Counted from the first letter of the stretch, positions 9,757 to 53,237 are shown. The stretch is DNA of 64,000 bases from Dudresnaya verticillata (GCA_977862235.1 OZ374563.1:806001-870000); one strand, 5' to 3'. A program made the numbers and translations. The notes: generated by a model from the sequence alone, not told the origin.

Positions 9757-9765
9757 ATCCTCTTG

Positions 9766-24942: not shown

Positions 24943-24987
24943 CTTATCGGTGTCACCAGTGATGGAAGCGATTTCACATTCGCGGAC

Positions 24988-28812: not shown

Positions 28813-28836
28813 CCTCATAAGGAGAGAGTGACGAGA

Positions 28837-32699: not shown

Positions 32700-35696
32700 A
32701 CGGAAAGTAGGGAATGCACACACATGCTCCATGCTCCGTTAGGACCTGCCGTGTCTTTCCTCCTTCAGATTCCTCATCTCAGTAATCATGGAGTAGGAAT
32801 GTGTGCGCATTAGAAAGAGTCGAAGTAAAATGATAAAGGTGGGAAAGGTCCATGGGTATGATGCATGCAACCAGGAAAAGGAGGGTCTGACCTGTCCGTT
32901 TGGCCGTGTTTGCAACAGCGTATCCATGCAGTTGCGACTTCTACTCGTACAAGGATAGTATTGCTTCTATAATATAGCGGCGCTAGTTCTTCGAAACGAC
33001 ATATGCGAAAAGAAGTGATGGAAGAGGAGCAGTTCAGTAAACGTAGCTGGGTTTACTCACATTGAAAGCACACGCACAACTACGAAACCGGAAAGCTAAG
33101 AACCTAGCGTAGCAAGGACGGTATTTGTAGGGGAGGGCAAATGGAAAAGCTCGGATTGTGGAAGTGCGATATGTGTAACAGCGTGGGGATGAGGATTATA
33201 ATAGGCGAGTCTGGCTCGGTCCAATCCTAGAGTACTGCAATGTCTTGGCGAAAGGACGGGAACTTCGACATTTGGAGATGCACAAACTGCAAACTTGCGG
33301 GGGGCGGCGCGGTATGCTACATGCAGTTGTTCTGACTCTACAATTAGAGCTGCGCACAAGCCGTGAACTGATTTGACAAATTATAAAATTATATCGCAAA
33401 TCACCTTTTCTGTGGCTGTTTCTAATTTTGAGACACGCGGAGCAGGAGATCTCTGATTTGGCCCCAGCCAAATGTAGTTTGGGACCCTGATTTGTCCCCC
33501 CAGTGTCGTCCTGCAAAGTACTGCCCTGTCTTCAAAGCCAATTCCAGGTCAGTTGCAGCCGAGTCCGTTTGCCGGGGGAACCTCTCTGACATTTTCGAGA
33601 GCAAGACATTTCTGTCTTGGGACTTCCACATTTCTGCATATAACACAGCGGAACTAGAACGCACGGGGTCATGGTAGTACGTGTAAAATCTGGTGACGCA
33701 TCTAGCACTGGAAATAAAGACGGAACCGAATGCTGTTCGCATAGTCTTTCCGGCCAAGGCATTTTTCAGAGCCTCAATCTCGCAGAAAGTGAGGAGGGCC
33801 GCTTGAATGAGTCTGGACGTTTGTAGAATACTTGTTTCCTCTTCTCCTGCTCGCAAGGTGCCAGGATTTCCAATTGCATCTCGCAGTGAGGAATGTTCAC
33901 CGCGGAGACATATATGTCCTAGAGCTTCCAAAGATATAACGTCTGTTCTTCGCACGAAATGACAGAGGGGTCCTTGAATAAACATGGAGTACATTTTCAA
34001 GAGATCGTGACAGACATCCTTGTTCCACTCTGAAGAATTATCTACCCATTCACCCCATGCTACACCTGTTTTTCTAACAGAGCGTTGTAGACGTTCCAGG
34101 TAGGCAAGCTCTCGCTGCAGGCATAGAGTTAGACATGGTATGTTTCCAGATAGATTAGCTCCATTTCTTCTCATATAATCCACGGAGGTTTGTGATACGA
34201 ATCCGTGAAGAGGTTTTAAAATCCTGTACATGATGACATCCTTGTCAAATATGGACAACGTTAATTTGCGTATAGAACGGATATAGCTACTCTCCCCGAT
34301 GTCGTTACTATAGTCGTTAGGGGTTGCACCGCATATCGATTCCATGAGGAAAGTGCCCAAAACATCCATCTCAGACAATAACCGAACGCACATCGTGACA
34401 TCCTTAACGGTTTTGGATGTACAGTCCACAGTGGACCCCTTGATTCCTGAGAGAAGTGTCTTAAATGTACCCTCACGTCTGAATATTCCGGTTAGTGGGC
34501 GATGAGTTGTTCCGTTCCTAGATGACTTCGATAGCGGTATTGGCTCGCAGGCTTGATGAATATTCTTCAGCGGTACTTGCTTGTTTTTTACATATCCCAA
34601 CTGAATACCGTCGATGCAAAGCGCGGGGATATCGTCTGTGTCTAATGTGCATGTCTCGCACTCAAAGAGACATGGATCAGGACGCAAAGTCATCAACCTG
34701 ATCATCAAAGAGCATAGGTCTTGTAGTTTTCGCGTTGAGCGGCAATGTACGGTGGAAGGCTGGAAACCGCAGCTGATGGCACCCGTGGCCTGAGAGTGAT
34801 AGTGCTTGAGGCGGCTACTGATCGTTCCATTTCCAACCACAACCCCAGTGAGTTCTCGGCGTAACAGAGCGTGTGTGGCAGCAGAGGTAACGGACTCTAG
34901 GAGAATACAGTTCCCGACCGTCAGCCACTATCACTGCATAGCAGTTCTCACGAGAGCATTGAAACTCTTCGACATGTAGTGCACAAGGACCGATTGTGCT
35001 CATGAGCACTCCGTCAGTCCATAATTTTCGAGACTTCTCTTTCCTTGATGATTGGCAGCGTCGACAGTTTCTGGGGGCAAGAGATAGGAATGGTTTCCCT
35101 TGTCTTGCAAGCAACCCAATCGAAAGGTCTACTGCTATGGATCTCTTGCAATTAACGGGGGAAACTGGAAGCTTGGAGATTGACGGTGGGAGGTCCGTGG
35201 TGTGGATAGTTGGTGATGGAGTAATGGGATTCTCTTCGTCATCTTCCGGGCACATTTATTCTCCCCTGAGTGTCTGAACAACACGTGTGTGCATGCAGCC
35301 GCCACTAAACGTAGTGTCACAGAATGCACAGACATGTAACGTCTTCTCGACAACTCGCACCGGGATAAAGTGAAGAAATTCATCGGAGGGGAATTGAAAT
35401 TTCATTGAGACGAGACGCGCCCTCTGGTCAAACATATCTTGTATATCTGGACACCCAGACATATATGTCTCGATGTCGTTCTGAAAAGTTCGTGAATACA
35501 GCTGAGCGAGAATTTGAGCAGACTTGTCAAGGGAAATACCACAGCATTTTGCGAGTTTTGCTAAGGCCAGGCGGAAACCCTGCACGTGAATGCAAGCGTT
35601 GTCTTAACTTTGGGGTTTTGCGCCATTGATGCGAAACTCAGTGATACCGACACAGCTACAGTAAAAGACATGGTCTACCCCAAGCCACGTGCTGAC
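32700..35696 (-). pseudogene. Decayed SWIM + CxC-cluster transposase, KDZ (Kyakuja-Dileera-Zisupton)-like
   Basis: Two SWIM-like motifs (FYCSC...CIH at ~35660-35586; CAFC...CMH), CRRC...FQCSRENC...ADGRE, FECETC...LCIDGIQLG and KTGQYFAG. Several stops and frameshifts. The 3' limit is uncertain. Confidence 0.6.
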
Positions 35697-36446
35697 CACT
35701 ACGAAGGCGATTTTAAAATGATTCGATAATTTCTATGGTAATATCCATTATTTTTTTGCGTCAGATTTTGCGCCGGCCCCGACGGATGCACATCATTAAA
35801 ATCCCAGATTTGCAGCATGAATATCCTTGCGCCACAGCCTCGCGCCGTTGGTTTATGTTTCATTTCCCCGGCGCGTTTTGATATTTTGTTTCTGGCGGTT
35901 TGGAGCATTATCGTTCATGTTTTGATGTGTTTTCGCAATACTTCAAATTGCCCAGGCCTGGGTCATGAAAATTACGAGTTGTTTTGCGAATCCTAATGAA
36001 TCTGGTTCAAGGGACTAATGCTTTATTTCCTTTGTTCTGCCGCTTACAACATACGTGTTGCGATGCGGCGGTATCTCGCCAAATCACGGTCTAGAAACAT
36101 CTCATTAATGCTGCGCTATACTCTGCAGTAATGGAACGACACGTTCCAGGAATGATGATGCGGCCGCATCTTCCCGTTCGACATTTCCTTACAAAGCATG
36201 CTTTTGGAGGTTCCATTTCTGTTGTGCGTTTCGTAGGCGAAGCATGCTTCTGGCGCGACCGCGCTCAGTGCACATTGCGCACATTCGCAGCACATTCGAA
36301 TGCTGTATGTGTGGCGCCATACCATACCCGCTGCCGTTTATTTTCCTTTACTTTCGGTTCTTTACTTGACTAATTCTTATGTGCCAGGCCTGATGCGAAT
36401 GCGGACGTCCGGACGGTTAAGCGTTTGCGGGTGCTCCGTCCGACCA

Positions 36447-38117
36447 CTAGCCAATCCACTCCTTAAGCCTATCCTCGTCGATAAGAGCATCGAGCTCGTC
36501 ACAAAGCGCGTCCCCCTCACACTGAAAGCAGGGGACTGCTATCTCAATGACTCCAATCGTTTGCGAGGCCCGTGAAAGGTCGGCCGACCATGCACGTGCC
36601 CTAACGGCTTGTGTGCGCCTCCACGATATGTGGAACCCCCGCGGGATACGACGTGTCTCCGGACAGCGCCCGCTATCTTTATCTTCCCGATTGGGATCTT
36701 CGACATCTGATGGGACGCGTTTCGAGACTCGCAAGGAATGGACGAATCTTCTATCCTCTGAAGACCACTCCCTGGAATCTCTCATTAGCACAGTGCAGGC
36801 ATCACCTTCTTCACTCTCTTTGTCCCTAGGGCGTCTCATGCCGCGGCCGCAGCTCCTCCCAGCGAACAGTGCGCAGGGGTATGCTTCGTTATCTACGGTA
36901 TACTCGTATGTTCCAAGAACCCTGAGGACTCTTCCATGGGACGTGGCCACTTCCCTTCTCAACATTTGAAGGCGATCGGCATCCGAAGATATACCCAACA
37001 CATCACACAGCATACCAAAACTGCTGAAGGACACAGAAATATCATCCGTGGACAGTGAAGGGCATTGAGACAACTGAAAGGAGGGGAAAAGGCAATACAG
37101 ACAGATCCATTATCACGTGCGTACTTGGCACGCCAGGTCCTGGCCAGAACCGCGAACAGCCCCACATCACAGTCGGCTGAAGCCTTGATGTAGTACTGCG
37201 CGGTATCGTTTTGAAGTTCGACATCATCCATTGTCTCACACCCCTCCCTAATTACCCTTCCCGGCGTCAGCAAACCAAGTGTAGTTCGTTCTGAGACTGG
37301 CGTTCCCTGCGAATCTGGGCCCGGCCGGCCCGTCTGATTGTTACGAGGCGTTTGAGGTGCACATGATTCTTGCGAGGGACCCGGCGCGGCCGCGCCAGGA
37401 CCTCTTGAAGAACTCCTCCTTCTCAATGCCGAAGATCTTGTTCTAGATGTTTTTCGCATCGGCCTTTTTCTCTTCCTGCGACTCGGCGTTTTCTGCAGCG
37501 CAAGGGCAAGACGAAACCGAAGATAGCACAGGACTCGCTGACAACTCTCATCCAGGCCTGGATTAGTACTGAGTTCGATCCGTGCCGAGTTGCTTTGTAC
37601 GCGATTCTTGAGCGCTTCAACCTCTGTTATCAAACTGGAATACCTGTCGCGAAGATTTTCCAGCTCTCCAATTGTCTTAGTATGTTGAACAGATTCGCGA
37701 CCAGTCACAGGTATTGCCTGTTCCGTGTACACGTCTGTCTGATATTCTCTGTCACATATACGACCTCTTCGCGTAAACCCATCAGACGGGCCCGTCTTCA
37801 TCCTCCACGACAGCAACAGGTTGTAGTTTGTTTCCCGATCTTCCTCCCAGACCCGAAGAAGCCTACCAGCCAGGAACTCGACTTTTTCCACGGATGCCAT
37901 ATAGCCGTATTGGGCGTTTGCGGCATACTCTATGGTCGCGGCCGCGATCACATCTCCTTCATCAATTTCATCAACGGCGAGTACCTCAGCATCCCACCAC
38001 AGCTCATCCCCATTGTCCATCTCCCAGGCGACTTGCACCCATTCGTTCGCCAGCGGTAGTGCATTCCGCTCTCTGCAGGCGCGCCTCATAATACCAATCG
38101 CAATTGTAATAAAACTT
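36447..38117 (-). pseudogene. CACTA cargo gene A: N-terminal Tudor/SH3-like barrel, coiled coil and unknown C-terminal domain (one frameshift)
   Basis: WVQVAWEMDNGDELWWDAEVLAVD...ATIEY. ORFs 36959..38179 and 36447..37073 overlap at ~37060. Confidence 0.55.
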
Positions 38118-38953
38118 TGTGGCATAGCTGTAAGACCAGCTGTGCCACGCACGCGCAGCTGTAAGACCAGCTGCGCCACGTGTGCACTGCTGTGCGCACG
38201 CTGTCAGCCGGTGGGGCCGAAGCCCCGCTGAACTGTAAGGGAGTGCGCAGTGGCGCCCACGTGTGCACGCGTTCGCGTGTGACACTGAAACTCCCATGTA
38301 ATTTCTACGTTTATTGTTTTGTAGTGTACAGCACCGTCTAGTGTAAGCGGCGGTCGAACGCCCTGCTGTCCTGCGCGCTGTGCGCACGCACTCCGTCGCA
38401 GAGCCGTTGAGTGCGTGACACGCGCGCGCGCACTCCGGCGTCGAGCCGTTGAGTACGTGTGGACCGTTCCGCCTGCGCGCGCCCCCGGGTTACCGTTACC
38501 CGTACGCGTCGACGCGTGTTGGGGCGCGCCAGCGCACCTCCCGGGTTGGTGCCGCCGCAGGCCCTGTAGTATATCTAGTATTCGCCCCTATGGGCTTCAG
38601 TAAACCAGGCAAGCCAGCCTACGCCAGGCTTGCCCTTTCTGCTTTGGGTTTCTTTCCCAGTCCTTCGCCCTACGGCTTCCCTCTTCCCCTAGCCGTCTAG
38701 GCTTTCCTTTTCCTTTCCCTACCGTCGGCTTCGTGCCGCCCCACGACGGGGACGCAGGGATCCGGCCGCTGCCGCCCGCGTACGGTACGCCCCGTGCGCG
38801 CTCAGGATTCGACGCCGTTGATCCGCGACCGTCGACGGCGCGCGCGGCCGACACCACCGCTCTACCACCACAGCCACCACCCTTCGACGGGTCTGGGTGC
38901 GACTCATCGACCAGCGCAGCTAGACGTCAGTTCGACCTGACGTCTATGCCACA
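38118..38953 (+). mobile_element. Solo LTR (Gypsy clade)
   Basis: Perfect 10-bp TIR TGTGGCATAG...CTATGCCACA. Flanks AACTT/CACTT (5-bp TSD, 1 mismatch). Internal TAGTATAT...CAGTAAA as in the other LTRs. Confidence 0.88.
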
Positions 38954-39284
38954 CACTTGATTCATTCGGGAGAGAGAAAAGTTGGCTTCAGAGCTCTGAA
39001 GGGAATTCCGAGAAAGCAATCATTGCCATCATGCTCGGCCGAGCTCCGAATAGGCGTATACGCCCGAACTTGCACGCTGTTTCAGGCACGATCAAAGACA
39101 TGCTTCACATTACTCAAATTTCATGGATTGCAGCAATATTTTCCCTCGCTGCATAAAGTGCACCTGGACTGTCTTGCTGAGTGTGCTCAACGTCCATGGA
39201 CGTACATCAGGTCCTCTAGGTTAACCTACTGGGAAAGGCCGTTCCTTTCTTCTACTGAAAACATCTCGAGTTATTGAAGACAAT

Positions 39285-42200
39285 ATGCGCGTCACCGGGA
39301 GGAAGACTTCCGAGAGACGGCGTGGATTACAAGCCAGTTCCTCCAAAACTCCCAGACAACGGAAGGTGTCTTCGAAGGGAAACGGCTTGGTTGGACCTCC
39401 TCGCGAACGTTCTGACACTGTGGGAAAGAGAGAGAAGTCCGGCCGGGCCTCGAAAGCACAAGAAGTGGAAACGCCATCAACGGAACAGAACACACCGGGA
39501 TCTGACATCATCACTCCACGAAGTGATAGACATGGAAGAGAGCATGGTGCTGATCAAAGCCCTAAGGGAAGTAAGCGGCCGCTTATTCATGCTCTTCCAG
39601 AGACGCAGCCACGACTGGGTGATGATATGTATGACCCCACACCATCTCCGGAGTCACCTGCAATGAGGCGGACAGCCACTCAAGCTGCAGGAGTTCTCGA
39701 GAACGAAGATAACCGAGGTAGTGATGCAGAGTACCGTTCACCCGGGGCCCGGATATTTCCCGCGGTAAAAGGAGAAAAATAGCTCTAAAGGTCCCACGGT
39801 CTGTGCCCCGAACACGCATAAGTGACGGTGTGGGTGATGATGAAGAGATTGGCCGAAGAGAAGATGTGGATCCGAGGTACCCGACCCCGGTGTCGAAAGG
39901 ATTACCTCTTGATAGTGTGGAAGACACTCCTTTGTACATCAGAGGTCGAGCCATGTTTGGTACTGCACCGAATATGATTAAGCCTGGCCAGGCGCGGTTG
40001 TCCACTCAGTCTCTTGTTATGAGAGACACAGCCGTGAATAACCTCATTGAGCAGATTGAGTATCAAGCGTCATGTAGATGCGATTCAGGATGTCGTCTTA
40101 AAAACGTTTGCCGAGCTGGACAATAACATGGCCGAGGTTCGAAGAGATGTGCAAGACATCCGGTCTGCGGCACAACTGAGGGGGTCCGGGCCCGGATCTT
40201 GGCCGGCAGGTGGCTCTAAGAAGACAGCTCGGGACATTTTTCACGCCAAACTCGATAACGTCACACCTCATGCGAACTTGGTATTCAACCAAACAGTGAT
40301 GTGCAGTGTGCTCAGTAGTTGCGTTTCCTACTGTGTCTCCAGTGCTGTTTCAAACAATGATGATACCTTAAAGGCGTCGGCCGACGCTGTTTGTTCCATC
40401 CTATTTGCGAAACAAGTTGATCAAGCCAAGAAGACGTTCACGGAAGGCACCGGGAGCCTTGTGGCGCAAATCGCCTTGGCGCCCTGCTGAAGAATTCTTC
40501 ATAATGCGGCCACCCGCGGCTCACGCGACTGCGGACGACGGACGCACAGCGGCGGGTTCCTGCGGATCAACCGCTCTGCGGGTGATTGAGCTCAGAGCCA
40601 ATTTCTATAATGAGCTCTGGCACCACACGCACGCGCCAGCAATGATACTGGGGAAATGCCTCTGTAAGGCGACCGGCCTGACAGTGCCCGGCGCCCTCTG
40701 CCAGCAAGGATGGCCCCTTAAGACGACAACGCGTACACGTACACACGTGCGCGCCCTTGGCGCACACCGTTCAGCCACACTACCACTAGGCTGACATTTG
40801 ATAGTTTAGTAGATAATTATAGAATTGCGCGCGCCACGTAATGCCAAGTGGCGCGCCCCCTTCCCTTACCTTAATCCGCCACCAAGGCGCACCCGCCTCC
40901 TACATAGTATATTAGGGCCCTGAGGTGCGCCCTCATACAGTAAACAGCCAAGCTTGGGCCCAGCGAGACGTACCCTCCTACCCTATCGACTCCCTCTTTA
41001 GGCTGGACTCCAGTACATCCGCTACCCTTCTTCATCGTACAGAATCCTTTTTTTCCTTTATTTTCTCTTGCTTTTTCCTTCTTTCAAAGGAACCTCCCTT
41101 TTTCTGTCTTTTGGTGTTTTACAGTCACACCAAGGGGCATTCCCCAGCTCTACCAACCAGCCCTCGCTACCCACGGGCCCCCGAACAGCCCGAGGTGTAT
41201 CCTCTGTCGCTTCTTCCTCAGTGGATTGCACCACAAAGCTTTAGTGCGTTTCAGTACTTGGTAGTAACGAATGCAGTATACAACGTTCAGCAGAACCGCT
41301 TCGGTCAGTTCAAGCCTCTACCTGAGATCGATGTGTCTGGAGGGCCTGGTGCCGGCCGGTCGGCCGGTCAAAGTCAGCTCTCCATAGCCAAATCAGGGGA
41401 GGCACCCGCTCCGCAGACGTCAGGTATACAGGGCATACCCCCTGGAAACGGAGTAGGTGATAACGCTATAGACCACCCCGACTGGCTCAAACCGAAGATC
41501 ATTGCTGAGGAGCATATTAAGAATGCCCGAATGTTATGCGAGATATCAAGTACGAAGACGAGCGATGTGGACGGCCGTCCAACGGTACACTTAGGCGCAG
41601 AACGCGAGGTGCAGGAACGCGCTAAGACAATTGTCGTGAAGGATATGCCGACAAGTCATGTTGCATACTTCGGTGCCTCGAAGATATACAAGATTGTTAC
41701 AGACTGGCTCCCCGAAAGCAGGCAGAAGGCGAAGAACGCTTTGGCAGAAGACCTGACGTACCTTATGGTCAACTGGGCCCAGTTGAACTGTTCAGGTGTG
41801 GAACAGACCACTGTGCGGGTGCGGTGGTCGACAACAGAAGCAAGTGCTGGCACATCTCTGTCCGAAGACGACTTGAACCTTGAAGAAATCCTGGAAACAA
41901 CGCGAAACCCAAAGCGCACTATTGATATTGATGTCGCCAACACAAAGTTGTACAATGGGATACTGAAAGATAGGGTTGATATGATGGTAAGCGTATGCCA
42001 TGACGTCTTCGAGCTTCCATGCGCTGCCGGCGGCCGCCGGAGCTCCGATAGGAAACCACGGAAGAGGCAGGGTGGCGAGAAGAAGCCGCTTAAGAGAGTT
42101 GTCAACTTAGTTGAGGTGGCAATGAAGTTCTGTGCGGCGGTTACACAAAGCACATCAAAAGAATACTCTCCTGAGCTTTTTCCTTGGGGCACATGCAAAA

Positions 42201-42551
42201 GCGCTGCATACAGTGATGTCCATCGCTCATGTTCTGCGCCTTTTGGTGAAGAAGTTTGTCGCAGTGCATTTCGACGGGAGGGGGCGTTTCCGCGGCCGCG
42301 TAATAACGACAAAAGGAATTAAGGTCGGAGCATTGGCACTGGACACATTAGTGGCAGGAAACTCTAATATGAAAAGAGTTTTGACAAGTCGAGCGTTGCG
42401 AATGACCGAGAAGGAATACGATATTCTCAACATTGCAGATCCTGTAGACGGCGGAGATGCCGCAACCTGCTGTGACACAGGTGATGTATCTGGGAGAGGC
42501 CTCTCCGGAGAAATTGTTGCAAGCGACACGAATGGCATCATGGAGGTATAG
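39285..42551 (+). pseudogene. CACTA cargo gene B (unknown function), frameshifted and interrupted by a solo LTR
   Basis: ORFs 39285..39782, 39803..40126, 40047..40490, the post-41236 part of 40925..42322, and 42132..42551. Removing the LTR rejoins ...TEGTGSL/SFSAFQYLVV in frame. Confidence 0.65.
40460..41235 (+). mobile_element. Solo LTR (Gypsy clade)
   Basis: TGTGGCGCAA...TTGCACCACA termini. Imperfect TSD AGCCT/(A)AGCTT. Internal TAGTATATTAG...CAGTAAA. Confidence 0.8.
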
Positions 42552-42719
42552 ATGAACAAGTGTTCAACGTTAAAGAAGTGAACTCATACAGCGTAGGCCT
42601 ATGTATTCTTGGCCTACTGTTGTACAACGTGCACAACAGTTAGTTTATCTGTTAATGAAACATGAGGACATGTGTTAAACAGCTCCTCACAGCCAGGTAG
42701 TAGTCACTACTGAGCTATC

Positions 42720-43830
42720 AAGAGTGGGCCCACTCCTTTCACAATGCATGCCGCCGTGCACAAAATGAAAGCTGGAAGGAGCTGCTTCAGCCTAGGCTAT
42801 AGCCTGCAACACCTGGTTGTAACCAAGCAATGTGTTAGACAGCAACTAGCTGCTGTTAGTTAGCAATTGCTCCAGTTGATAACGCTACAAGTACTTCAGG
42901 TATAATTTCGAAGCCTAGGCTGGATCGGACCTGAAGGACCATGCCCACTCCTTCAACACCGCATGCCGTCGTGCACAAAGTGAAAGCAGCAAGCAGCTGC
43001 TTTAGAATAGGCTATAGCCTGGTTTCAATCCTCAGCCGCAGCTATGAGAGCACAGCGCGGAGCACAATTGTACTGTTATGTTGCGAAGGCCTAGCTCCTC
43101 GCAGCTTTCAAGCTTAAGATTTTGTACCACAATTGTACCAGGTAGAAAGAGTGGGCCCACTCCTTCGTTACGCCGTCTTGCGCAAAATGAAAGCAGCTGC
43201 TAGGAAGCAACTGCTTTACCCTAGGCCACAGCCTGGTTTCAATCTTCAGCGGCAGCTATGTAGCTGCATAGCTCTCATATGCGAGCACAACCCGGAGCAC
43301 AATTGAACTCTTATGTTGCGAAGGCCTAGCTCCTCGCAGCTGCAAGCTTAAGCTTTTGTACCACAATTGTACCAGGGAAAAAAGTGGGCCCACTCCTTCT
43401 TTACGCCGTCGTGCGCAAAAAGAAAGCAGCTGCTAGCAAGCAACTTCCTTAGCCTAGGCTACAACCTGGTTTCAATCTTCAGCCGCAGCTATGTAGCTGC
43501 ATAGCTCTCATATGCGAGCACAGCGCGGAGCACAATTGTGCTGTTATGTTGCGAAGGCCTAGCTACTCGCAGCTTTCAAGCTTAAGCTTTTGTACCACAG
43601 TTGTACGAGGTAGAAAGAGTGGGCCCACTCCTTCATTATGCCGTCGTGCACATTATGTCGTCGTGCACAAAATGAAAGCAGCTGCTAGCAAGAAACTGCT
43701 TTAGCCTAGGCCATAGCCTGGTTGTAACCAAGCAATGTGAGCAACAAGCAGCAAGCAACTGCTTGACAATAGGCAACAGCCTGGTTGCAACCAAGAAACG
43801 GGTTAAAAAGGAGCTAGCAGCTAGCTAGCA
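42720..43830. repeat. Tandem array of ~210-235-bp units, ~5 copies, rich in palindromes
   Basis: GAGTGGGCCCACTCC at ~42722, 42942 (partial), 43149, 43383 and 43617. Units also contain AAGCTTAAGCTT and CCTAGG. Confidence 0.95.
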
Positions 43831-43839
43831 GGTCATTAT

Positions 43840-46800
43840 TTACATGTAAAGCTTTGCAAAGATAGATGACAACTGAAGGACAATCAGTAGCGGCCCGGTG
43901 CGACTCGGACCAGCTCCTCTATCGTAGCCTCGCGGTAGGAACGGCATGTAAGGGTGAGCCTCGCCTCTCGGGTGAGCATCGCCTCTCGGGTGAGCATCGC
44001 CTCTGGGGTGTCGCTCGCAGTCGACACCCGGCTCATGCGCACGTTCAACTTCCGTGTAACGGTCATCACGATGATAGGCGTATCCTGAGCGGTCCGCGTT
44101 ATGGCCGTTACGGTACGGCGTTTCGCACTCGCGGCGGCCGCCGCCACCCCTTATGGTACCATAGCTATGCATAGGAGGCGCGGGCCTCGGATTGGCATCG
44201 GTCATATGATCATAAGGGCCGCCACGAAACCTGCCAGCGTTATTAACTTGGTATTTCCCGCGGTCGTACCCGTCATAGTTGTCGCGGTCTTACCCACGAT
44301 AGTTGCCACGGTCGTGCACGAGGGCATGCCCTTGGTAGTTGCCGCGGTCGGGCCCTTGATAGTTGCCACGGTCGTACCCTTCATAGGTGCGACGGGCACG
44401 ACCCTCATCATGGACATGTCGAGGGTGCATGAACTCATTACGCCCACCTTGAGCAGGCCCACGTGGGGCACACGGGTCGCGATACCCCGGGCCCTGAGCA
44501 GGAGGCCTTGCGGCAGGCCGGCAGGAGGGCCCTCCATCACCCACTCTCCCAACGAACTGTGCTAAGTCATCTCTCTCGGCACGTAGCGCTTCCATGGAGA
44601 ACATAACCTCATTAAGGTTACGCGTCGTGTGCGTTACCGTCTCGAAAAGCTTTCTCGCCAGCCTCTCAACAGTAATGAAGTCATGCTGTATCCAACCCTG
44701 TAGCCTGATGTATGTTTCCAGACCTGGAATCTCGGCCAAGTCTCTGAGGCCGATGCGCAGTGGGAGCGGGGTGGAGGCGCGCATTTCCTGCCGACGGACT
44801 TGACGCACGCTGAGCTTGATATGACGGCACTTCGAGTCAAGCATGACCTTCCTCCCGGCCGGGGGGTTCCCAACAATGTTGCCAGTTCCGATAACACTTT
44901 TAACGAAGAAGCTCCGTGTCAGACCTTCGAACGGTAACATCAACTCGTTCCGCTTCGACACGTCCATCGCATTCGCAGCTAGCATCCGCGAAATGACAAC
45001 ATCACAGTCAATTCTGGTGCATGGAAAACCCTTCCCATTCATGCTAACAATCTCAACATCTCCCACAACCTGCTTGATCGTGTGGATGGTTTCCCCTTCC
45101 AAGATGAACGCGCGGCCGCCGCGAATCGCCTCATTATGCCAGGTAGCGGCCAGGAGACCAAGAAATTCAACCTTGAGGATCTCCTTCAAGCGCTCACGTC
45201 TATCCATGTTTCTGCTGTCAACCATTTCCTGGTGATAGTACCACACACAAGGGGGGAGGGGGACTGGAAGAGTTGCTGGTACCTTGAGGTTGGCCAACCA
45301 CACAGGCGTCGCCGGGAAGACCTTCCTCATCTACTGAAGTGTGTAGCGCTTTGTCTCATACGCGTCAAAAGGCACGAGCAGACCACAGGATTCCCGGGCC
45401 CAAGCTTCATAGACAAACTCGGGTCTGTACCTGAATCCATTCCACCAACGGCCTAGAATGGGGTCATTGAACAGAGGGTGGTCTTTAGCGCAGCGCGGCA
45501 GCAGCTCTTGCAAGTAAACGTCCATCTCATCATTGTAGTAACACTCCACCTCACCCCGAGCGAATGTTCTGTCGACCTTCATCGTGTTCGGAAGTCCATA
45601 CCATGGTCTCTCGGCAGTCATGAGAGACCATGCATCATTCGCTGATTGCTGATCCTGCTCGTAGAGGTTCAGATACCGCTTTGCATCTGCTTTCATGCCG
45701 GTGAGCTCCCGCTTGACATAATGTGTGAACGACATGACGCGGAGCACTCCAGCACTCCGCGAATGTCTTGCGCTCAACCGGCGCTTATCAAGTGCAATCG
45801 CATCAAGATTGTCCCTCCATTCGGGAGGAGCCCCTTCCCGTCCTCCACGCGGCTGCATGCGTGGCAGCTTCGCCCACGCGGAATTGAAGGTTGGTACAAC
45901 AGCAACCTGAGCATCATGCGCGGCTGCGCCATGCCCATGGGGAACATCCATTGCGCGTGACGATTCCATTCGCATTTCTCCTGGAGTGCGTTGAATAACG
46001 CGCATCGACTCCGCGAAAGTCAGGTACGGAACAGGCGTTGCCTGCATCTGCAATGGCGTTCCTGGCCTATCATCTCGAACCGCAGCAGAACCTTGAGCAG
46101 CGCGACCAGCGGCCACTGGCCCAGACCTTGGCGCCTCACCAGGCGCGCCTCGTCGCGACGACGTGGCTTGACTTGTGCCCTTCGCGGCAGACCTTTTCCT
46201 CTTTCCCTGACAATCTATGTCCTGGGCGGCCGCCCTTTTCCGCTTTCCCAGCGATGGAAGTTCTTCCAGGTCTGATAGTTCCTCGGCGGTATTGTAGGGA
46301 CCATAGCTCTTCCGCAGCTTGGTCAACTGGGCTTCATTATCGACATCAATGACATCACTGAGCTCTCTATCTTCATTGGCCCGCGATTCCCCACCCTGGG
46401 TACTCTTCTGTGCTGGCACCCCGACCGGGGTCTTGCTCGCAGGCTGGACGTCTGCAGCCTTGTTAGCAACCTCCGACGCAGAGCGCGGCCCCGCGGGGGT
46501 GTGAAATCCAATTGTACCCCCATCTGTCAAACGCATGACAAAGTCCACATTTTCAGGACTTGTGCCATTATCCAGCAACTTCTCCTTGAAAGCTTCTTTG
46601 CCCGCGCTGGAGGTGGCCACTTCCAGCTCCACCTCATGTGGTGCACCGCGGTCCCCGCCGGGGCCGGCCGGGGCTGGAGCCTCTCTCGCCACTGGGAGCT
46701 GCCTATCATGGAGGTCGTTCTGTGTGGCCATGGGGATGTCCGTTGTTTCTGCGAGGATAACGACCTTCTTCGTCCTGAGTGATTCTCTACGCGTTGTCTG

Positions 46801-47763
46801 ATTGCCTTCAGCAGAGGCTGCGGCCACATCCTGGCCAGTAGAAAAAGCGCGTTTGGGGGTTGGGGTCTTGTTCTTGACCATCGTACTCTTCGAGGCCGCC
46901 TGCTTCTCTGCGTCTGCTTCGGTCGGCGCGGCTTGACTACGAATACCAGTAGCAGGGCCGGTAGCAGGGCCCTGCTTGGGAGGTGCCGTAACAGCGGGGG
47001 CAGAACTTGAAGATCTAGTCTTCGGCTTCGAACGGGTAGGCTTCGATATCGAGGACCTCTTGGGAACCTTATTCTTGCCCAGCGCTCTAGTGGAAGACTT
47101 GGTAGCGGCGGCCGCCGCCCTCGTCTTCGAACCCACCGGCGTCTTCACTGTCTTGTCTGTAACTCCGGATTTTCCCGGGCGTTTCCGCGTCGCCGAGCGC
47201 ATCGCTCCAGGTGTTGGCGCCGCGGGAGTCGAGCTTGGCGCAGAGGTCGAGCGTTTGGGAGCTGGCCGGTTCTTCCCAACATCTTCGGATGGAGCGGTGC
47301 GCGCGGGCGCAGGCGCGGGCGCAGGCATGGGAGCGGGCGCGGGAGCGGGCGCAGGCGCGGGTGCAGGCGTGGGAGTGGGCGCGGGCGCGGGTGCAGGCGC
47401 AGGCCCGGGAGCGGGTGCAGGCGCAGGCGCGCCCGGAGCAAGCGGGGGTGCGGGCTCGGGTGCAGGCGCTGGCGCGGGAAAAGGCGCAGGAGCTGGAGCC
47501 GGCGCGGGCGCGGGTGCAGGTGAGGCCGCGGGCGCGGCCGCGCTGCCGTCCGTAGACGACGTGCCCATGGGCAATTTGGAGTTGTCGGTACCCATCGGGA
47601 AAACCTGGAGGTGGGAGGGTGTAGTCCGGGTTGTGGTTGCGGAAGAGAGGGAGCGGTGGGACTCATTTTGCTCTGATATAACGTATTTTGACGGGCCTGA
47701 TGGCGACCGCAAATCACCGCTCGCGTCGTCCGCGGCCGCGGGCGATTGAGTCAGCCGGCTCAA
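43840..47763 (-). pseudogene. CACTA cargo gene C: Pro-Ala repeat and basic region, domain X, coiled coil, RGNYxG repeats
   Basis: 45331..47763 and 44290..45330 are one frame split by a single TAG, with a probable frameshifted tail at 43840..44205. Confidence 0.7.
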
Positions 47764-48582
47764 TGCCGTGCCAAATCATCGATCTGGGCTGCATACCATG
47801 GCATGACAGATCTTGGGCCCTGCATGCAGGCTCCAGGCCCGGCCGGGCCCAGTTTCCCTTTTTCCGGTAATTTTTTTGGAACAAACGGACGGCAATGCGG
47901 CTCACAACAGAGCCGTGATCGCGGCATGCGCCGCTGTGCATCAGGCAGGCCTGTCTGCAGGCGTACCGGTACGACCAATCACATCTACTCTCTTGTCCCA
48001 TGGCACACGTAAGGCGTGGCTGTACGCAGGTGAAAAACGTCATTGGCTCCAAATTTCCGAATGAGGCCCGCAATACGGGCAAACTATGCGCAGGTTCCAG
48101 TACCGGACCGCCCAAATGCAAGTCTTTGGATTTCAAACAGGCGGTTGTGCTTGTTTGACTGCGGCCGCAGTTTTGGCACCCGACAATCTGCTACGCTGCT
48201 ACCGCTTTCCGCGTCGCGATGCTCTCCTCTCACACGGAACTCACTCCATGGTGAACAGTCTTCACCTCATCATCGGGTATCGCCATTAACGCTTCGTCCT
48301 GAGAGTGCAGCGCGCTAGTGCTGGCAGGCTTGCAACCCAGAACGCGCTCCGTGATTCACCGTCTTCACATCATCACCAGGGCCCGAGATTTGTTTTCCGC
48401 CGTGCTGCTCGAAACCTGGAACGCGTTTCAGGGTACGTCCTGGCGGATAAGTATCCTATTCGGTCGCCATCCCTACGCGCGGCCGCGTCGCGGTATACGA
48501 TTGAGTTTCGTTAATTGATCAGCCGCATTGGAAAGCACAACATGGGCGTCGCAGAAGTCGTCAACATTCTTGGGTCGACTCT

Positions 48583-51500
48583 GTGGGAATGCGTGCCAAT
48601 CTAACCCACCTATTTCAGTTCGAGAGCTCCAACGACGCATCGGCAATTGCAATTGATGAAGGACCAGCCGGTCTCAGCCCGAGCCGTTTACCCAGCTTCG
48701 AACCAGGGTCTCCTACCGTTCAGATAGCGAATGAAGACTCCGCATGCGCGCAAGACACCGCGTTCGTGAGTCCTTACCAGGATCGCCTGGGCCCAGACGA
48801 AGGGCCATTCTTCTGTCCAGAATTCGATGAAGATGATGTGCCCCCCGAGTTGTTTGATTCTTTCGATGAGATCATCGACCTGGCAAATGGTGAATCTGTG
48901 AGGAGGTGGGAGCAAGATAGGTTATGTGACCCTGTTTCACGAATCGAAGTGCCACAGCCCTTCGCTTGCTTCGAATCGCGCAACAGGATGGACTCGTCCG
49001 GCCGGACTTCCGTTGGTTCTGCGGTGCCGGTGCCATTTTCTCGGCAGGATCTCGTGAAGTTTCTGCATAAAAGAAGAACTCTGCTGAACTGGGAGGAGCT
49101 GTTCGCTCTGTTTTGTGTTTGTGGAAGCGTCCGAATGACTGTGCGTCAGTATGAAACTTTGCAGAGAATGGGTAACTGGCTGGAGCGGCTTCAAAGTCGC
49201 GAGGCCTCGCTACCTGTGTATTCTACCATCCAACGAACGACATTCCCGTTCGCAATCAAACATTACTTCGTTGAGAGTTACAATGTTTCCCTTGCTGTTA
49301 CGAAGCAAGATCTGAAGAAGAGGGGAAGGGGGATCTCTTTCACTGACGTTGAAGAAGAGTGTGGACACATGAGAGGGCGGAAGAAGAGAGTGAGAGCGGC
49401 CGCTCCCCGACCTCCTCAACACGCTGCAAGCCTTGAAGCAGACGAGACGGCCCGACGATTTCCTCCTGTCAAGGTCATATTCCCTTCGGAGTGGGCCAAG
49501 ATGGATGTAGCAACTTACCCTGTATTCAACGATTTGTTTCCTAACTTCGACACCGGCAACCCCGGGGCCCCGGCGTCTGACTGCAGCTACGCCCAGAGTC
49601 CTGCTGACCCCGAATCCATCGAGATAACAAGAGTTGTGAGGCACCGCCGAAATTCTTTAAACGCTGCTGAGATGTTGTTCGTTTCAAAAGGGGAGAACAT
49701 CGTTAGAGCGACCACAGGAATAACGGTGGATGTTCATGTTCAGCGAGTTCCGAGGCGTGTTGTAACACATCCGCGTTCAGCACGGTCCTGTGCCTCGAGG
49801 GCAAACTCCACCGGGGCCCCGGGTGTCATCGTGACTGGACAAATTGCTGCCTGCTGGTGTGTCGCTTCCAGAAGCTGCCAAACTGAAAGCTCAAAGCGAG
49901 CAGTTGAGGAGGCAAGAGGTGTTGAGAAGGACATCATCAACCTGTTAAGCGCTGGTGCCAAAGTTGATTGTATCCACGGAGGCTGTAACGAAATCGCGGA
50001 CGCTAACCAGACAACGACTACAGACTTGCAAAAAAGCACGGCCGTGCTTCCAGGGGACTTTTGCTTGCTTTTCAGTATTCCTGAGCGACGCCCAGAAGGC
50101 TTCGTGGCCTGTGTGCTGGTCAGCAGGTTCTGGCGATATCGGGATGGGGAGCCTTCGCAGCTCTTAATATGGATAGATGTGGACAACAGTTGGAGTTCAG
50201 GCGTTGATGTCTGCGGGGAGGGGTCGCCATTTCAAGTCCTGAAGGAAAGGACGCCAGTTAAGAAAGTTCACCTTGGCGTGTGTCGAGATGGAAGAGAGCG
50301 AGCACTCCGAAAAGCCATTGATGAAGAAGACATGCCTATGGACTTCCTTTCTCGGCCGAGAAATATGGGGGTCCTTCATTCTGGAGAGAGATATGTCATA
50401 TATCGCCTTTTATTGTACTGTGACGACTTTCAACCCTGTACTTCTTTGCTCCAGCAAGGCTCTGCGGGTGGGTGCTACCCTCTACCACTCGGTCTTTCAC
50501 CGCGAAACCGTGCGAAGAGATCAGCTGTACGGCTTTTGGGACTGACACCGCCCGGCGTGAGCACAAATGAGGTTCTGCGGGACATCGTACCAGACCTCGT
50601 GAAGGGATGTACTGAAGGTTTCAAAGGGAAGAGCCCAAGCGGGGAGCATGTCAGGATCTTCCTTGACCCAGTCGGGTTCATTGCAGACTTCCCGGCGGCC
50701 GCCAAGTCTACAGATGTTGTAGGATACACTGACAAGGCCTCTTGTACCCACTGCAACTTTCTACGCGCATTCAATGATGTTTGAAGTAAGTTCGGCTATA
50801 CTGTGCGACTACACTCCCAACATTCTTCAAGCGTTCGCTGCAAAGCAAGGCATAATGCTTTGCGGGAGAGTGGAATTTGCGAGCACCAAGCACCACGTAT
50901 GGGAATGTCGATGGAGTATGACGACAGTGGCATAAAACCGCTGTTGTACTTGTCTGAGGAGTTGGAGAGATTCCGGCCGGACGTGTCCCTTAACGTCAAT
51001 GGAGAACGTGTCGTGCCGTGCACCTTCGACCCATACCTATCACAGGTCGTTGCCCCAGATCACTTACTCACCGGCTTGATCAAGAATACTCCTACAACCT
51101 GCTTCCTGGCTTTGTCTCCAAAGGGGAAAACCATTGCTGATATCATAATTTGCCAGGGACTTCGCGACAACGGGATGCTCACCCAGAATTCCGTCTTCGA
51201 GAGTAAGTTACACTCCATGCAGCTTTCCGAACTGTACTGCGTTCTCACTGTGTCTATTTCTGCCTTTCGTATAACCCTGGGAAAGGCGAGCGATGCTTAC
51301 CGCTTGGCCAAGTGCCTGCAGGAACTCATTTCAGGAACATTCTGGTGGCCTCTTGCACATGTGGACGGAGAAAAAGCTGTGGAGACGTTTCGAAAGTCGG
51401 GTGGCCACCCATATCTGCGCCGCCTGCAGAGTCTTGCGACGAAATATGTCAAGTTGAGCAACGAGTACATTGAGGCAAACGATCTTGACGGCGATTTGGA

Positions 51501-52598
51501 CAAGCCCAATCTACATCGCCTCATGGAACTGTACTATCACACTATCCCAATGTTTGGGCATGCAAGACATGTCATGGAACTGGTATTCGAGTGTGCGCAC
51601 TCCCCTCTGAAACGATGTGTGACAAGAAGTAATCATCACAATGCGCATATATCCGCCGTGGAGCATGTCCTCGGAAATGACTGGCAGGGAAGGCTTGCCC
51701 TCCTTAGACACACTTCGGAGCATGGAAAAATCAAGAACGCATTATGGCGCGCAGAGGTCTCAGAAGGCTACTTCTCGGGCCCGAGATCTGCTCCGTTAAG
51801 GAAGAGGACCCCAAAGTCACTACCGTTATTCAGGACTTGGACGACAAGATCGAAGGAAGGGGTGTTCGTGGAGCCGCTAATGGAAGAACTAAGGGCAGAT
51901 GGTAAGGTGAATCCTTCCTGGTCGAGTACGGAAGCGGAGTGGACAGGGACGACAGTTTCAAAAGAGCTAAAAGGCGTAGGGCGAGCTAAAACAGCTGTAC
52001 ATACGTGGGACGAGTTCCTTGACGAGGCTGTGTCGGCAATTGAGGAGTACTACCCAGACTTCGATAGGCGAAATGGAGCTGCCGCCCCAGCCTTCATCAT
52101 GCGCGGAGCGAAACGAGTTCGAACGACAACGGTTGCGGGCCCGCATCGGACCTACAGGCACGACATAGTTGCCCATGGGTCGGTATTAAGATGCCTTGTT
52201 TCGCCCGGGGATGAAAACAGAAAAGTCATTTACCAGCAAGTGATTGAAGTGGAAATGTGAAGCTGTTCGCAGTGGTATGCTGCCTTCAGTTTGGAGGCAA
52301 TGGAAGAAATGTGTCAGAGCGCGGGACTTGGGCAATTGTTGTTCAGTGCTTGAAGACAGATGCGAGGCTGCAGGTGAGCGCGGCCGCGCTATGTGAGAAT
52401 GTTCAGGTGGTGAAATTGACAAGGGGCGTGAGGAGAGTCGCTGTGTACCACGACTGTGGTTTTCAAGAGGACGGGTTGCATCTGGAATGCGAAGTCGATG
52501 AGGAACAAAGAACTGTTAGGCATACGGAGTCAGTGTTGGATGGAGGGCTGTACTTTTTTCAGACGAGGGAGCAAGGTTACCCTCCGCGCATGGCGTAG
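48583..52598 (+). pseudogene. CACTA/EnSpm-type (TnpD-like) transposase
   Basis: LLLYCDDFQP...SAGGCY...LTPPG...FIADFPAAAK...CTHC; APDHLLTG; KPNLHRLMELYYHTIPMFG...FECAHSPLK. One in-frame TGA (50782-84) and a frameshift near 52257. Confidence 0.88.
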
Positions 52599-53237
52599 GC
52601 AAAATCGCAAGCGTGCCAGCGCATGCTCCGGCCGGAAGCGTGGGCGCCTGATAGCGCTATTGTCAAGGGCGCAGAAGGAGATTGATATCGCGCGCGGCCG
52701 CGCGCGACGCGCGGCCGAACGCTGGCCGGCGTGCCCAGCGTTCGGCAGCACGCGCGGGCGAGTGCCGTTACAAGACCGACGAAACGGTCACTTGTTACAG
52801 TTGTGTAGGTTCATAGTCATGAAGTAAAGCATGTTTTCTGATGGGTACGAAATGGCTGTGTCATTAAGTAATGCAGGCCAATGCATACGTATAGATTCGA
52901 TGGGCGCAAAATATAAACTGGAAATTGCGACGATATATGAAACATAATACTTCATGAAGTATAACATGTTATTACTGCGATGCGATGCATCGCAGTAAGG
53001 CCGCAGGTGTTGCAAGGTGCATGCGTAAATCTGCGGCGGTAATGAATCTGACTCAAAATTGTGACGCGCCAGAAATGAATTCTAATTATGGGGTATCAAA
53101 TTTTCTAATGCATTCCAGAATCACTTTGCAATTTCTGGCGCATGTTTTCAGACCCTGGCGCATCAAAATCCCATGGGCCAAACCCATTATTTTGCGATTT
53201 ATTCTAATATGATCAAGCCGAAATCGCCTTCGTAGTG

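What the first reader, a model, noticed from the sequence alone, without database searches (positions are those of the whole stretch)
35697..53237. Giant multi-gene CACTA element with three unrelated cargo genes
Seen: 17-bp CACTA TIRs lie 17.5 kb apart (about 15.9 kb without the two solo LTRs). They enclose gene A (Tudor-like,-), gene B (unknown,+), a palindromic tandem array, gene C (domain X,-) and an EnSpm transposase (+). Established: canonical CACTA elements encode TnpD plus TnpA, and none of the cargo resembles plant TnpA by eye. Inference: a distinct CACTA lineage with a fixed accessory gene set.
Basis: partly seen in the sequence, partly recalled or inferred. Interest (0 to 1): 0.75.

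Follow-up and report, generated by a model that had tools for sequence, protein, structure and literature searches.

The report
Decayed multi-gene CACTA-type DNA transposon
This 17.5-kb stretch is a worn copy of a cut-and-paste jumping gene of the CACTA/EnSpm kind whose cutting enzyme is predicted to fold like the RAG1 recombinase, and it also holds three or four extra genes without known relatives that likely, but not demonstrably, belong to the element.

Summary
A perfect 17-bp inverted repeat starting CACTA bounds 35697-53237 (17,541 bp). Long ORFs lie on both strands, and a 233-bp tandem array rich in palindromes sits in the middle. The ORF at 48.6-52.6 kb is a real transposase. It has 1,200 relatives at E<=1e-3, its predicted fold matches RAG1 (Z 16.6) and Transib (Z 14.2), and it keeps the near-invariant D/D/E and CxxC residues. 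No Pfam model reaches its cut-off, so it is a distinct lineage of the EnSpm/Plavaka/Transib (CMCT) clade.

This copy is decayed. The transposase has one in-frame TGA and one frameshift. Gene C has two in-frame stops, and genes A and B are frame-broken. There is no clean target-site duplication.

The "fixed accessory gene set" could not be tested, because no genome and no sequencing run was available. Genes A and C have no detectable homologues. None of 22 distantly related loci carries any cargo gene. "Tudor-like" and "two solo LTRs" were not verified.

Verdict: an ordinary, multi-gene member of a known transposon kind. The orphan cargo genes are the only open point.

The parts
35697..35713 (+). 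Left terminal inverted repeat, CACTACGAAGGCGATTT
   Evidence: Exact 17-nt inverted repeat with 53221-53237
35714..36449 (.). Left subterminal non-coding region with short TTTTGCG / TTGCG-type motifs
   Evidence: GC 0.47, CpG o/e 1.38, GpC o/e 1.5, like the right end. There are 6 TTGCG/CGCAA in the first 400 bp against 1.1 per 400 bp window-wide;
36450..38125 (-). Gene A: two overlapping ORFs in different frames (36447-37109 and 36959-38203), first ATG at 38125. The N-terminal part is 'Tudor-like' only by eye, followed by a coiled-coil-like stretch
   Evidence: ORFs. Pfam gave only a weak coiled-coil hit (TPR_MLP1_2, E 0.0066). No homologue found
38126..39284 (.). Divergent A/B intergenic region, G+C-rich (0.60).
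39285..40490 (+). Gene B1: ATG at 39285, read through three ORF segments in frames 0/2/0 (39285-39782, 39725-40126, 40038-40490), implying two frameshifts or assembly indels
   Evidence: No Pfam hit
40491..41290 (.). An inner-TIR 10-mer AAATCGCCTT lies at 40468-40477, just upstream
41291..42551 (+). Gene B2: the protein-like part of ORF 40916-42322, plus the overlapping ORF 42126-42551 in another frame
   Evidence: No Pfam hit and no PDB hit
42712..43802 (.). Tandem array rich in palindromes, lying between the convergent genes B and C. Its core is 43043-43649: period 233, 2.6 copies, 90% matches
43840..47595 (-). Gene C: first ATG at 47595. It has a Pro/Ala- and Lys/Ser-rich N-terminal third, a central region of about 560 residues with no known family, and a repetitive RG/DRGNY tail. 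In-frame TAG at 45331-45333 and TAA at 44290-44292; final TAA at 43840-43842
   Evidence: The 24-bp coding repeats straddle the TAA. No Pfam, PDB or protein-database relatives
47596..48588 (.). Divergent intergenic region between gene C and the transposase gene
48589..52598 (+). Transposase gene, about 1,336 codons, colinear with full-length homologues of about 1,300 aa. It is broken by an in-frame TGA (50782-50784) and a frameshift near 52248-52260
   Evidence: Fold evidence
52599..53220 (.). Right subterminal non-coding region
   Evidence: GC 0.49, CpG o/e 1.45, GpC o/e 1.76. Motifs
53221..53237 (-). Right terminal inverted repeat

Best explanation
A 17,541-bp DNA transposon bounded by perfect 17-bp CACTA inverted repeats encodes a transposase of about 1,330 codons from a large, unannotated family. 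The transposase is predicted to have a RAG1/Transib-like fold, and such an element would move by DDE cut-and-paste.

Shown:
- the inverted repeats;
- full-length colinearity of the transposase ORF with its homologues;
- retention of the family's near-invariant acidic, Cys and His residues;
- the RAG1/Transib match of the predicted structure;
- the lesions in every gene of this copy.

Inferred:
- The transposase binds the CACTA ends and the subterminal short repeats, cuts both ends and reinserts the element, as established for the EnSpm/Transib/RAG1 group.
- This copy, with a nonsense codon and a frameshift in the transposase, likely cannot move itself. With intact ends it could be moved in trans.
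- The other ORFs form two divergent gene pairs, A<- ->B and C<- ->transposase, with an array between the convergent B and C. They are likely element-borne accessory genes. One or more may play the part that TnpA plays in maize En/Spm, or act on chromatin or RNA. This rests only on their position inside the repeats, the compact layout, and the absence of signs of nested insertions.
For: - TIRs: exact, CACTA-initial, and the only such pair in 64 kb. Only 2 of 200 shuffled windows gave a CA-initial 17-mer inverted repeat.
- Transposase relatives: 1,200 at E<=1e-3, 660 at <=1e-10 and 233 at <=1e-30. The best is 42% identical over 702 residues.
- Colinearity: the N-terminal part matches P0004 at E 1e-26. 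The out-of-frame tail matches the C-terminus of P0007 at E 2e-19. All 230 tblastn pieces from 152 homologues fall in 48658-52595.
- Conserved residues: in 126 aligned sequences D111, D199, C218, C221, H324, H475, E479, E496, E500 and H503 are invariant or present in at least 90%, and all are present in the window copy.
- Structure: AlphaFold2 with 69 sequences gave pLDDT 85 and pTM 0.87. Foldseek found 44 PDB matches at E<=1e-3; the listed ones are all RAG1 or RAG-like, best 2.1e-7. VIA-align gave RAG1 Z 16.6 (372 aligned, rmsd 4.4, model 94-544 against RAG1 583-1008), BbRAGL Z 15.3, HzTransib Z 14.2, P element Z 13.4 and Hermes Z 6.1.
- Pfam on homologues: weak Transposase_21 or Plavaka hits in 11 of 67. 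ESM Atlas neighbours include Plavaka and Transposase_21 clusters at 0.89-0.90.
- The two ends: both subterminal regions share an unusual composition and short-motif enrichment.
- Inside the element: no internal long direct or inverted repeat pairs apart from tandem arrays, and no retroelement, integrase or helicase domains in the cargo.
- Coding signal: cargo ORFs show the GC1>GC3>GC2 codon-position pattern, as the transposase does.
Against: - There is no clean target-site duplication: GAC against TGG. At best it is GAC/GTC if the right end carries two extra bases.
- The flanks could not be joined into an empty site.
- No second copy was available, so unity of the 17.5 kb is not shown by comparison.
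- Genes A and C have no homologue anywhere searched, whereas the transposase has over a thousand.
- No cargo ORF occurs in 22 related loci.
- The TTTTGCG motif also occurs twice in the 150 bp just outside the left TIR, so motif enrichment does not stop sharply at the boundary.
- The window transposase itself has no Pfam hit.
Confidence: 0.72

Rival explanations
1. The element is real, but the cargo is not a fixed gene set. Genes A, B and C would be captured host genes, or remains of other poorly known mobile elements that this one copy or a small subfamily picked up (a Pack-type or chimeric CACTA). They would play no part in transposition.
For: - Cargo ORFs have no relatives, while the transposase has 1,200.
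- No cargo was found in 22 related loci.
- All cargo genes are broken.
- Gene capture by CACTA elements is established knowledge, and earlier notes of this scan report it (untested leads).
Against: - There are no fragments of recognisable host genes and no Pfam domains.
- The ORFs are long (about 560, 400, 420 and 1,250 codons) and arranged as tidy divergent pairs, not as a mosaic of pieces.
- The related loci are only about 30% identical and come from other organisms, so absence there says little.
Confidence: 0.2
2. The 17.5 kb is a composite. Two ends of related elements, or two half elements joined by ectopic recombination or a macrotransposon-type event, would enclose DNA that was never one transposon.
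For: - The flanking trinucleotides do not match.
- The left and right flanks belong to different sequences: an unknown minus-strand ORF block on the left and the 3' end of a Copia pol on the right.
- The region is a nest of transposons.
Against: - There is no further TIR-like sequence inside or nearby at up to 3 mismatches.
- The ends are identical over 17 of 17 bases and compositionally alike.
- The transposase sits 640 bp from the right end, as in autonomous elements.
- No internal repeat pairs mark nested insertions.
Confidence: 0.06
3. The inverted repeat is a chance match and the transposase gene is an isolated relic.
For: A perfect 17-nt inverted repeat within 25 kb arises in 17 of 200 shuffled windows.
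Against: - Only 2 of 200 shuffles start with CA, and a CACTA start is rarer still.
- The repeat brackets a transposase of exactly the clade that uses CA/CAC termini.
- Both ends carry similar subterminal composition.
Confidence: 0.02

Closest known systems
En/Spm (CACTA) elements of plants, such as maize En/Spm with TnpD and TnpA (established knowledge, recalled)
   Same: CACTA-initial terminal inverted repeats, short-motif subterminal regions, a large DDE transposase near one end, more than one gene, and a size of several to tens of kb.
   Different: - No Pfam Transposase_21 or TnpA (Transposase_24) match.
- The transposase is one intronless ORF of about 1,330 codons.
- There are three or four separate extra genes rather than alternative splice products.
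- No 3-bp duplication is visible.
Fungal EnSpm, Plavaka and ESTA elements of the 'CMCT' clade that carry TET/JBP and 'third' proteins (Kojima 2025, PMC12730594; passages read)
   Same: Multi-gene cut-and-paste elements with CA/CAC termini, whose transposases are only weakly similar to classical EnSpm. Homologues of this transposase give weak Plavaka and Transposase_21 hits.
   Different: - No TET/JBP or any recognisable domain in the cargo.
- The termini are CACTA, not the TGT..ACA or CATCA..TGATG given for Plavaka A and B.
- Relation to the named lineages was not tested by a tree.
RAG1, RAG-like and Transib transposases (solved structures)
   Same: The predicted fold of residues 94-544 superposes on RAG1 583-1008 (Z 16.6) and on HzTransib (Z 14.2). 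A CxxC lies 19-22 residues after the second Asp, and a conserved His about 25 residues before the conserved Glu. By recalled RAG1 numbering this is the same spacing.
   Different: Only about 10% sequence identity. There is no sequence-level PDB hit, even with a 69-sequence profile. Termini and gene content differ, and there is no RAG2-like partner.
Multi-gene CMCT-type elements noted earlier in this scan (e1-7629117, e1-7559671, e1-9904454)
   Same: Large TIR elements with RAG1-fold or Plavaka/EnSpm-type transposases plus extra genes.
   Different: They come from other genomes. No sequence look-alike of this transposase or of gene C was found in the scan's index. These notes are leads and were not checked here.

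Membership tests
EnSpm/CACTA within the CMCT clade (features as given in PMC12730594) | Termini 5'-CAC..GTG-3' (CMCT generally 5'-CA..TG-3') | tested here: met
   CACTACG... and ...CGTAGTG at 35697 and 53237
EnSpm/CACTA within the CMCT clade | 3-bp target-site duplication (2-5 bp in the clade) | tested here: not met
   The flanks read GAC and TGG. No identical 2-5-mer is present. GAC/GTC applies only if the right end is taken 2 bp longer. One old copy cannot settle the family's rule.
EnSpm/CACTA within the CMCT clade | DDE triad with a C(2)C motif after the second D | tested here: met
   D111, D199, C218-x2-C221 and E496/E500 are invariant or at least 90% conserved in 126 sequences, and are present in the window copy. 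Which Glu is catalytic is inferred.
EnSpm/CACTA within the CMCT clade | [quoted passage not shown] | tested here: inconclusive
   A conserved H475 is followed by E479 (x3) and, in most close homologues, by a His at x6. No clean H(3-4)H was seen.
EnSpm/CACTA within the CMCT clade | RAG1/Transib-like catalytic fold | tested here: met
   Predicted model with pLDDT 85. RAG1 Z 16.6, Transib Z 14.2. Foldseek E 2.1e-7.
EnSpm sensu Pfam Transposase_21 (PF02992) | Match at the curated cut-off | tested here: not met
   The window ORFs have no hit at E<=0.1. Of 67 homologues, 5 have sub-threshold hits at 15.9-25.3 bits against a cut-off of 28.6.
Plavaka (PF18759) | Match at the curated cut-off, and termini TGT..ACA or CATCA..TGATG | tested here: not met
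   The window ORFs have no hit. Of 67 homologues, 7 have sub-threshold hits of at most 22.6 bits against a cut-off of 26.3. The termini are CACTA.
Plant-type two-gene En/Spm | TnpA-type second protein (Pfam Transposase_24) | tested here: not met
   No Pfam family hit for any cargo ORF.
EnSpm/CACTA | Subterminal short repeats at both ends | tested here: inconclusive
   TTTTGCG occurs 5 times in the two 600-bp ends against 2 in the 16.3-kb body. The ends share composition. However, 2 more copies lie just outside the left TIR.
Tudor/Agenet/Chromo readers (gene A) | Domain match by profile or fold | tested here: inconclusive
   No Pfam hit at E<=0.1 and no PDB sequence hit.
Solo LTRs inside the element | TG..CA ends with a 4-6-bp duplication and other copies of the LTR | tested here: inconclusive
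   No second copy in the window. Only weak TG..CA plus TSD candidates were found. A genome is needed.
Multicopy transposon family | Further copies with the same ends | not testable with these tools
   No genome is held, no runs were listed, and there were no earlier notes.

The most novel reading that the evidence does not exclude
A separate lineage of the RAG1/Transib/EnSpm clade. It is widespread in little-sampled eukaryotes and invisible to Pfam. Its autonomous elements would carry a fixed module of three or four lineage-specific genes in two divergent pairs: a Tudor-like reader, a protein with an RG-rich tail, and others. These would help the transposase find its ends or evade host silencing.
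Probability: 0.2. Interest if true: 0.55.

Novelty: new member of a known kind. Interest (0 to 1): 0.3.

Why it matters
This is a clear, nearly complete example of a large transposase family (1,200 detectable relatives) that has no Pfam model and whose predicted fold matches RAG1. That helps annotate repeats in poorly sampled eukaryotes and helps trace the RAG1/Transib/EnSpm group. The extra genes would matter only if they prove conserved across copies. In that case they would be candidates for new transposon helper or anti-silencing proteins. As it stands, the element is an ordinary, decayed member of a known kind in a transposon-rich region.

Tried and rejected
- Whole-genome search: no genome is held.
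- Sequencing runs: none was listed, and no RNA holder was listed.
- Earlier notes by place and by sequence: nothing.
- Empty-site reconstruction: joining the flanks with 0-9 bp removed gave no continuous ORF. The flanks have no second copy in the window.
- Solo-LTR tests: the two candidate stretches are unlike each other and unlike anything else in the window. TG..CA plus TSD scans gave only weak candidates, and removing the best one (40460-41312) does not restore gene B's frame.
- Gene C single-sequence AlphaFold2: pLDDT 31, unusable, so not searched.
- ESM Atlas for the C-terminal part of gene C: best score 0.77, no lead.
- PDB sequence searches: gene A gave only E 0.42 to an unrelated chain. 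Gene C and gene B gave nothing. The transposase profile gave nothing relevant.
- The large protein searches score only about 8,000 word-sharing candidates. The low-complexity parts of genes A and C may have crowded that list, so 'no homologue' is not proof.
- Relatives in prokaryote genomes and viral contigs: none found.
- TIR search in the related metagenome loci: only 11-12-nt matches that may be chance. One group (L005, L006, L008, L021, L022) shares a copy boundary starting CACAG..., but no partner end was found in L005.
- Rfam and tRNA scans of the element: nothing.
- The two other TIR-like hits (21008 and 63653) were rejected as unrelated.
- A named-reference phylogeny (EnSpm, Mirage, Chapaev, Plavaka, Transib) could not be built, because no reference sequences could be brought in through the tools.
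Full report
**The observation.** The window holds an exact 17-nt inverted repeat, CACTACGAAGGCGATTT, at 35697-35713 (+) and 53221-53237 (-). It delimits 17,541 bp.
- With up to 3 mismatches the motif occurs 4 times against 0.12 expected. The two inexact hits (21008 and 63653) lie in unrelated sequence.
- Length alone is not strong evidence. In 200 first-order Markov shuffles of the window, 17 contained some perfect 17-nt inverted repeat 1-25 kb apart, but only 2 contained one starting with CA.
- The real window has two such repeats. One is this pair. The other is a 19-nt pair at 20623/23239 that brackets a PIF/Harbinger transposase gene.
- Beyond the 17 nt the two ends do not align. Both subterminal regions nonetheless have the same unusual composition: GC 0.47 and 0.49, CpG o/e 1.38 and 1.45, GpC o/e 1.5 and 1.76, against about 1.0 elsewhere.
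- Both ends are also enriched in TTTTGCG/TTGCG-type motifs. Two further TTTTGCG copies lie just outside the left repeat.
- There is no matching target-site duplication. The flanking triplets are GAC and TGG.
- Outside the repeat, GTGCTGAC on the left resembles the reverse complement GTGCGGAC on the right if 2 bp are skipped. This may reflect a palindromic target, or a slightly longer and imperfect repeat. I could not decide which.

**Content.** Stop-to-stop ORFs give this layout.
- Gene A runs on the minus strand, 38125 down to 36450, as two overlapping ORFs in different frames.
- A G+C-rich intergenic stretch of 1.16 kb follows.
- Gene B1 runs on the plus strand, 39285-40490, in three segments in frames 0/2/0.
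- An 0.8-kb stretch without convincing coding sequence follows.
- Gene B2 runs on the plus strand, about 41290-42322, perhaps to 42551.
- The tandem array follows. Its core is 43043-43649 (period 233, 2.6 copies, 90% matches), with palindromes such as GAGTGGGCCCACTC.
- Gene C runs on the minus strand, 47595 down to 43840. It has an in-frame TAG at 45331 and a TAA at 44290. The TAA lies inside a 24-bp coding repeat that continues beyond it.
- After a 1-kb divergent spacer comes the transposase gene, plus strand, 48589-52598.
- The genes therefore form two divergent pairs, with the array between the convergent B and C.
- None of these ORFs matches a Pfam family. The only hit is a weak coiled-coil match in gene A.
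- The cargo ORFs show the same GC1>GC3>GC2 pattern as the transposase.
- No long internal direct or inverted repeat pairs suggest nested elements.
- Cargo ORFs have no paralogues elsewhere in the window.

**The transposase.** I searched the core (722 residues, X at the TGA) against 1.84 billion representative proteins.
- It found 1,200 relatives at E<=1e-3, 660 at <=1e-10 and 233 at <=1e-30. The best is 42% identical over 702 residues in a 1,297-aa protein.
- The ten best come from ENA, Logan or JGI assemblies and carry no names.
- Alignment with the closest six shows colinearity from an N-terminal CGSVR.TV.QY block to a C-terminal ...GYPPRM(A/G) end.
- In the window that end is present in another frame, 52248-52598. 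It matches the C-terminus of P0007 at E 2e-19, so there is a frameshift near 52250.
- The N-terminal 500 residues match P0004 at E 1e-26.
- The TGA at 50782 sits at an aligned residue position, not in an intron. One homologue has Arg there.
- All 230 tblastn pieces of 152 homologues fall within 48658-52595. The homologues therefore share nothing with the cargo genes.
- In 126 aligned sequences D111, D199, C218, C221, H324, H475, E479, E496, E500 and H503 are invariant or at least 90% conserved, and all are kept in this copy.

**Transposase fold and classification.**
- AlphaFold2 with 69 sequences gave pLDDT 85 and pTM 0.87.
- Foldseek found 44 PDB chains at E<=1e-3. The listed ones are all RAG1 or RAG-like, best 2.1e-7, with HzTransib at 1.2e-2.
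- VIA-align gave Z 16.6 to RAG1 (372 aligned, rmsd 4.4, model 94-544 against RAG1 583-1008). It gave 15.3 to BbRAGL, 14.2 to HzTransib, 13.4 to P element transposase, 8.2 to ISCth4 and 6.1 to Hermes.
- By recalled mouse RAG1 numbering (D600, D708, E962; zinc ligands C727, C730, H937, H942), the spacings D199 to C218/C221 and H475 to E500 are the same as in RAG1. This mapping is inference.
- Pfam sees the family only faintly. The window protein has no hit. Of 67 homologues scanned, 11 have sub-threshold hits, 5 to Transposase_21 and 7 to Plavaka, with one protein hitting both. None reaches a cut-off.
- The ESM Atlas puts the C-terminal half nearest to unnamed clusters (0.93), then to Plavaka (0.90) and Transposase_21-bearing (0.89) clusters.
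[quoted passage not shown] - This element meets the termini, the DDE plus C(2)C, and the fold. The H(3-4)H is unclear, and the duplication is not seen in this copy.
- No relative was found in 185,579 prokaryote genomes or in IMG/VR by the pattern scans.

**Is the cargo a fixed set?** This could not be tested directly. No genome is held, no sequencing run was listed, and the scan has no notes on this genome. The indirect tests gave the following.
- Gene C (two searches, covering 338-2,032 residues) and gene A (227-725 residues) have no homologue at E<=1e-3 or <=1e-2 in the 5.8-billion-protein collection. Only about 8,000 word-sharing candidates are scored, and low-complexity parts may have crowded that list. 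Gene B was not searched there.
- A scan of JGI/ENA metagenome contigs gave 22 loci with relatives of the transposase, about 30% identical and falling into several multicopy groups at 84-98% identity.
- I ran tblastn with all 138 element ORFs of at least 60 aa against these loci. It hit only with the transposase ORFs and an antisense ORF over them, plus one marginal 24-residue match at E 9e-4.
- These relatives are distant and come from other organisms. Their lack of the cargo shows that the genes are not family-wide. It does not show that they are absent from sister copies.
- The closest homologues (37-47% identity) sit on 12-18-kb contigs that I could not fetch.

**State of the copy and mechanism.** Every gene is damaged.
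- The transposase has one nonsense codon and one frameshift in 4 kb.
- Gene C has two in-frame stops.
- Gene A has one frame change, B1 has two, and B2 possibly one.
- Some frame changes could be assembly indels. CpG o/e is about 1 throughout, so there is no sign of methylation-driven decay.
- The best reading is a cut-and-paste element of the EnSpm/CMCT kind that can no longer move itself. Its intact ends would still be substrates for a transposase supplied by an intact copy.
- The catalytic steps, end binding, and any role for the accessory proteins are inferred from the known families, not shown.
- The 'two solo LTRs' remain possible but unsupported.

**Comparison and novelty.**
- Multi-gene CACTA-type elements are well known. 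Maize En/Spm has TnpA and TnpD (recalled). Fungal EnSpm, Plavaka and other lineages carry TET/JBP and further proteins, and Phytophthora Harbinger and MuDR families carry SET genes (PMC12730594, passages).
- Earlier unchecked notes of this scan list several large multi-gene elements with Plavaka-, EnSpm- or RAG1-fold transposases in other genomes.
- I therefore rate this as a new member of a known kind. Its transposase belongs to a populous lineage not modelled by Pfam, and its orphan cargo genes deserve a copy census before any claim of a fixed module.
- I found no paper describing this particular family. Searches: CACTA + oomycete + transposase; EnSpm + Phytophthora; Lanisha + transposon; CACTA / Phytophthora / terminal inverted repeat; DUF6818. 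Only PMC12730594 was read, and only in passages. Repbase could not be consulted and may well hold it.

**Context.** The element lies in a nest of transposons.
- A chromovirus-type Gypsy pol lies at 8056-11634 (-).
- An LTR pair lies at about 17678-18176 and 24348-24860.
- The Harbinger-type element with a DUF6818 partner ORF lies at 20623-23239, inside that LTR pair.
- The end of a Copia pol (53610-55879, minus strand) lies 370 bp from the right repeat.
- A further integrase lies at 59577-60605 (-).
- The source organism is a eukaryote that I could not identify. My recollection that DUF6818 is an oomycete family is only a hint.

Noticed in passing
window 20623-23239: A 2.6-kb PIF/Harbinger-type element. 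It has a perfect 19-nt inverted repeat TGGGTGCATGCAGAAAATA enclosing a DDE_Tnp_4 ORF (21176-22063, +) and a DUF6818 ORF (22060-23190, -). Its flanking triplets also differ (GAC and CTG), so it too lacks a clean duplication.
   Followed up: partly
window 17678-18176 and 24348-24860: A direct repeat pair (229 nt at 92% plus 63 nt at 81%) about 6.67 kb apart. It looks like the LTRs of a retroelement that now contains the Harbinger element. The ORF at 18043-19443 has a weak chromodomain hit.
   Followed up: no
window 53610-55879 (-) and 8056-11634 (-): The end of a Copia pol (RVT_2) abuts the right end of the CACTA element at 370 bp. A chromovirus-type Gypsy pol (RVT_1, RNase H, integrase, chromodomain) lies upstream. 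No LTR pair for the Copia was found in the window.
   Followed up: partly
window 12999-17219 (-), 24745-27918 (+), 2436-4172 (-), 33422-34927 (-): Long ORFs of 1,406, 1,057, 578 and 501 codons with no Pfam family at E<=0.01. They may be further unannotated mobile-element genes.
   Followed up: no
window 40468-40477: An exact copy of the inner 10 nt of the terminal repeat (AAATCGCCTT) lies at the end of gene B1. About 0.03 such matches are expected by chance in the element. It could be chance or an internal transposase or helper binding site.
   Followed up: no
window 35680-35696 and 53238-53255: The sequences just outside the two ends are inverted look-alikes (GTGCTGAC and GTGCGGAC) if 2 bp are skipped on the right. 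This could be a palindromic target site or a longer imperfect terminal repeat.
   Followed up: partly
L005:4865, L006:1984, L008:1937, L021:3306, L022:1937: In one group of metagenome relatives of the transposase, the copies begin to be alike exactly at CACAGCAACGCAAAAC. That is a CAC-initial boundary containing a CGCAAAA motif like the subterminal motif here. No partner end was found in L005.
   Followed up: partly
window 28225-28837 and 32060-32222: Two tandem arrays, of about 130-bp units (4 copies) and 17-bp units (7 copies), lie upstream of the element.
   Followed up: no
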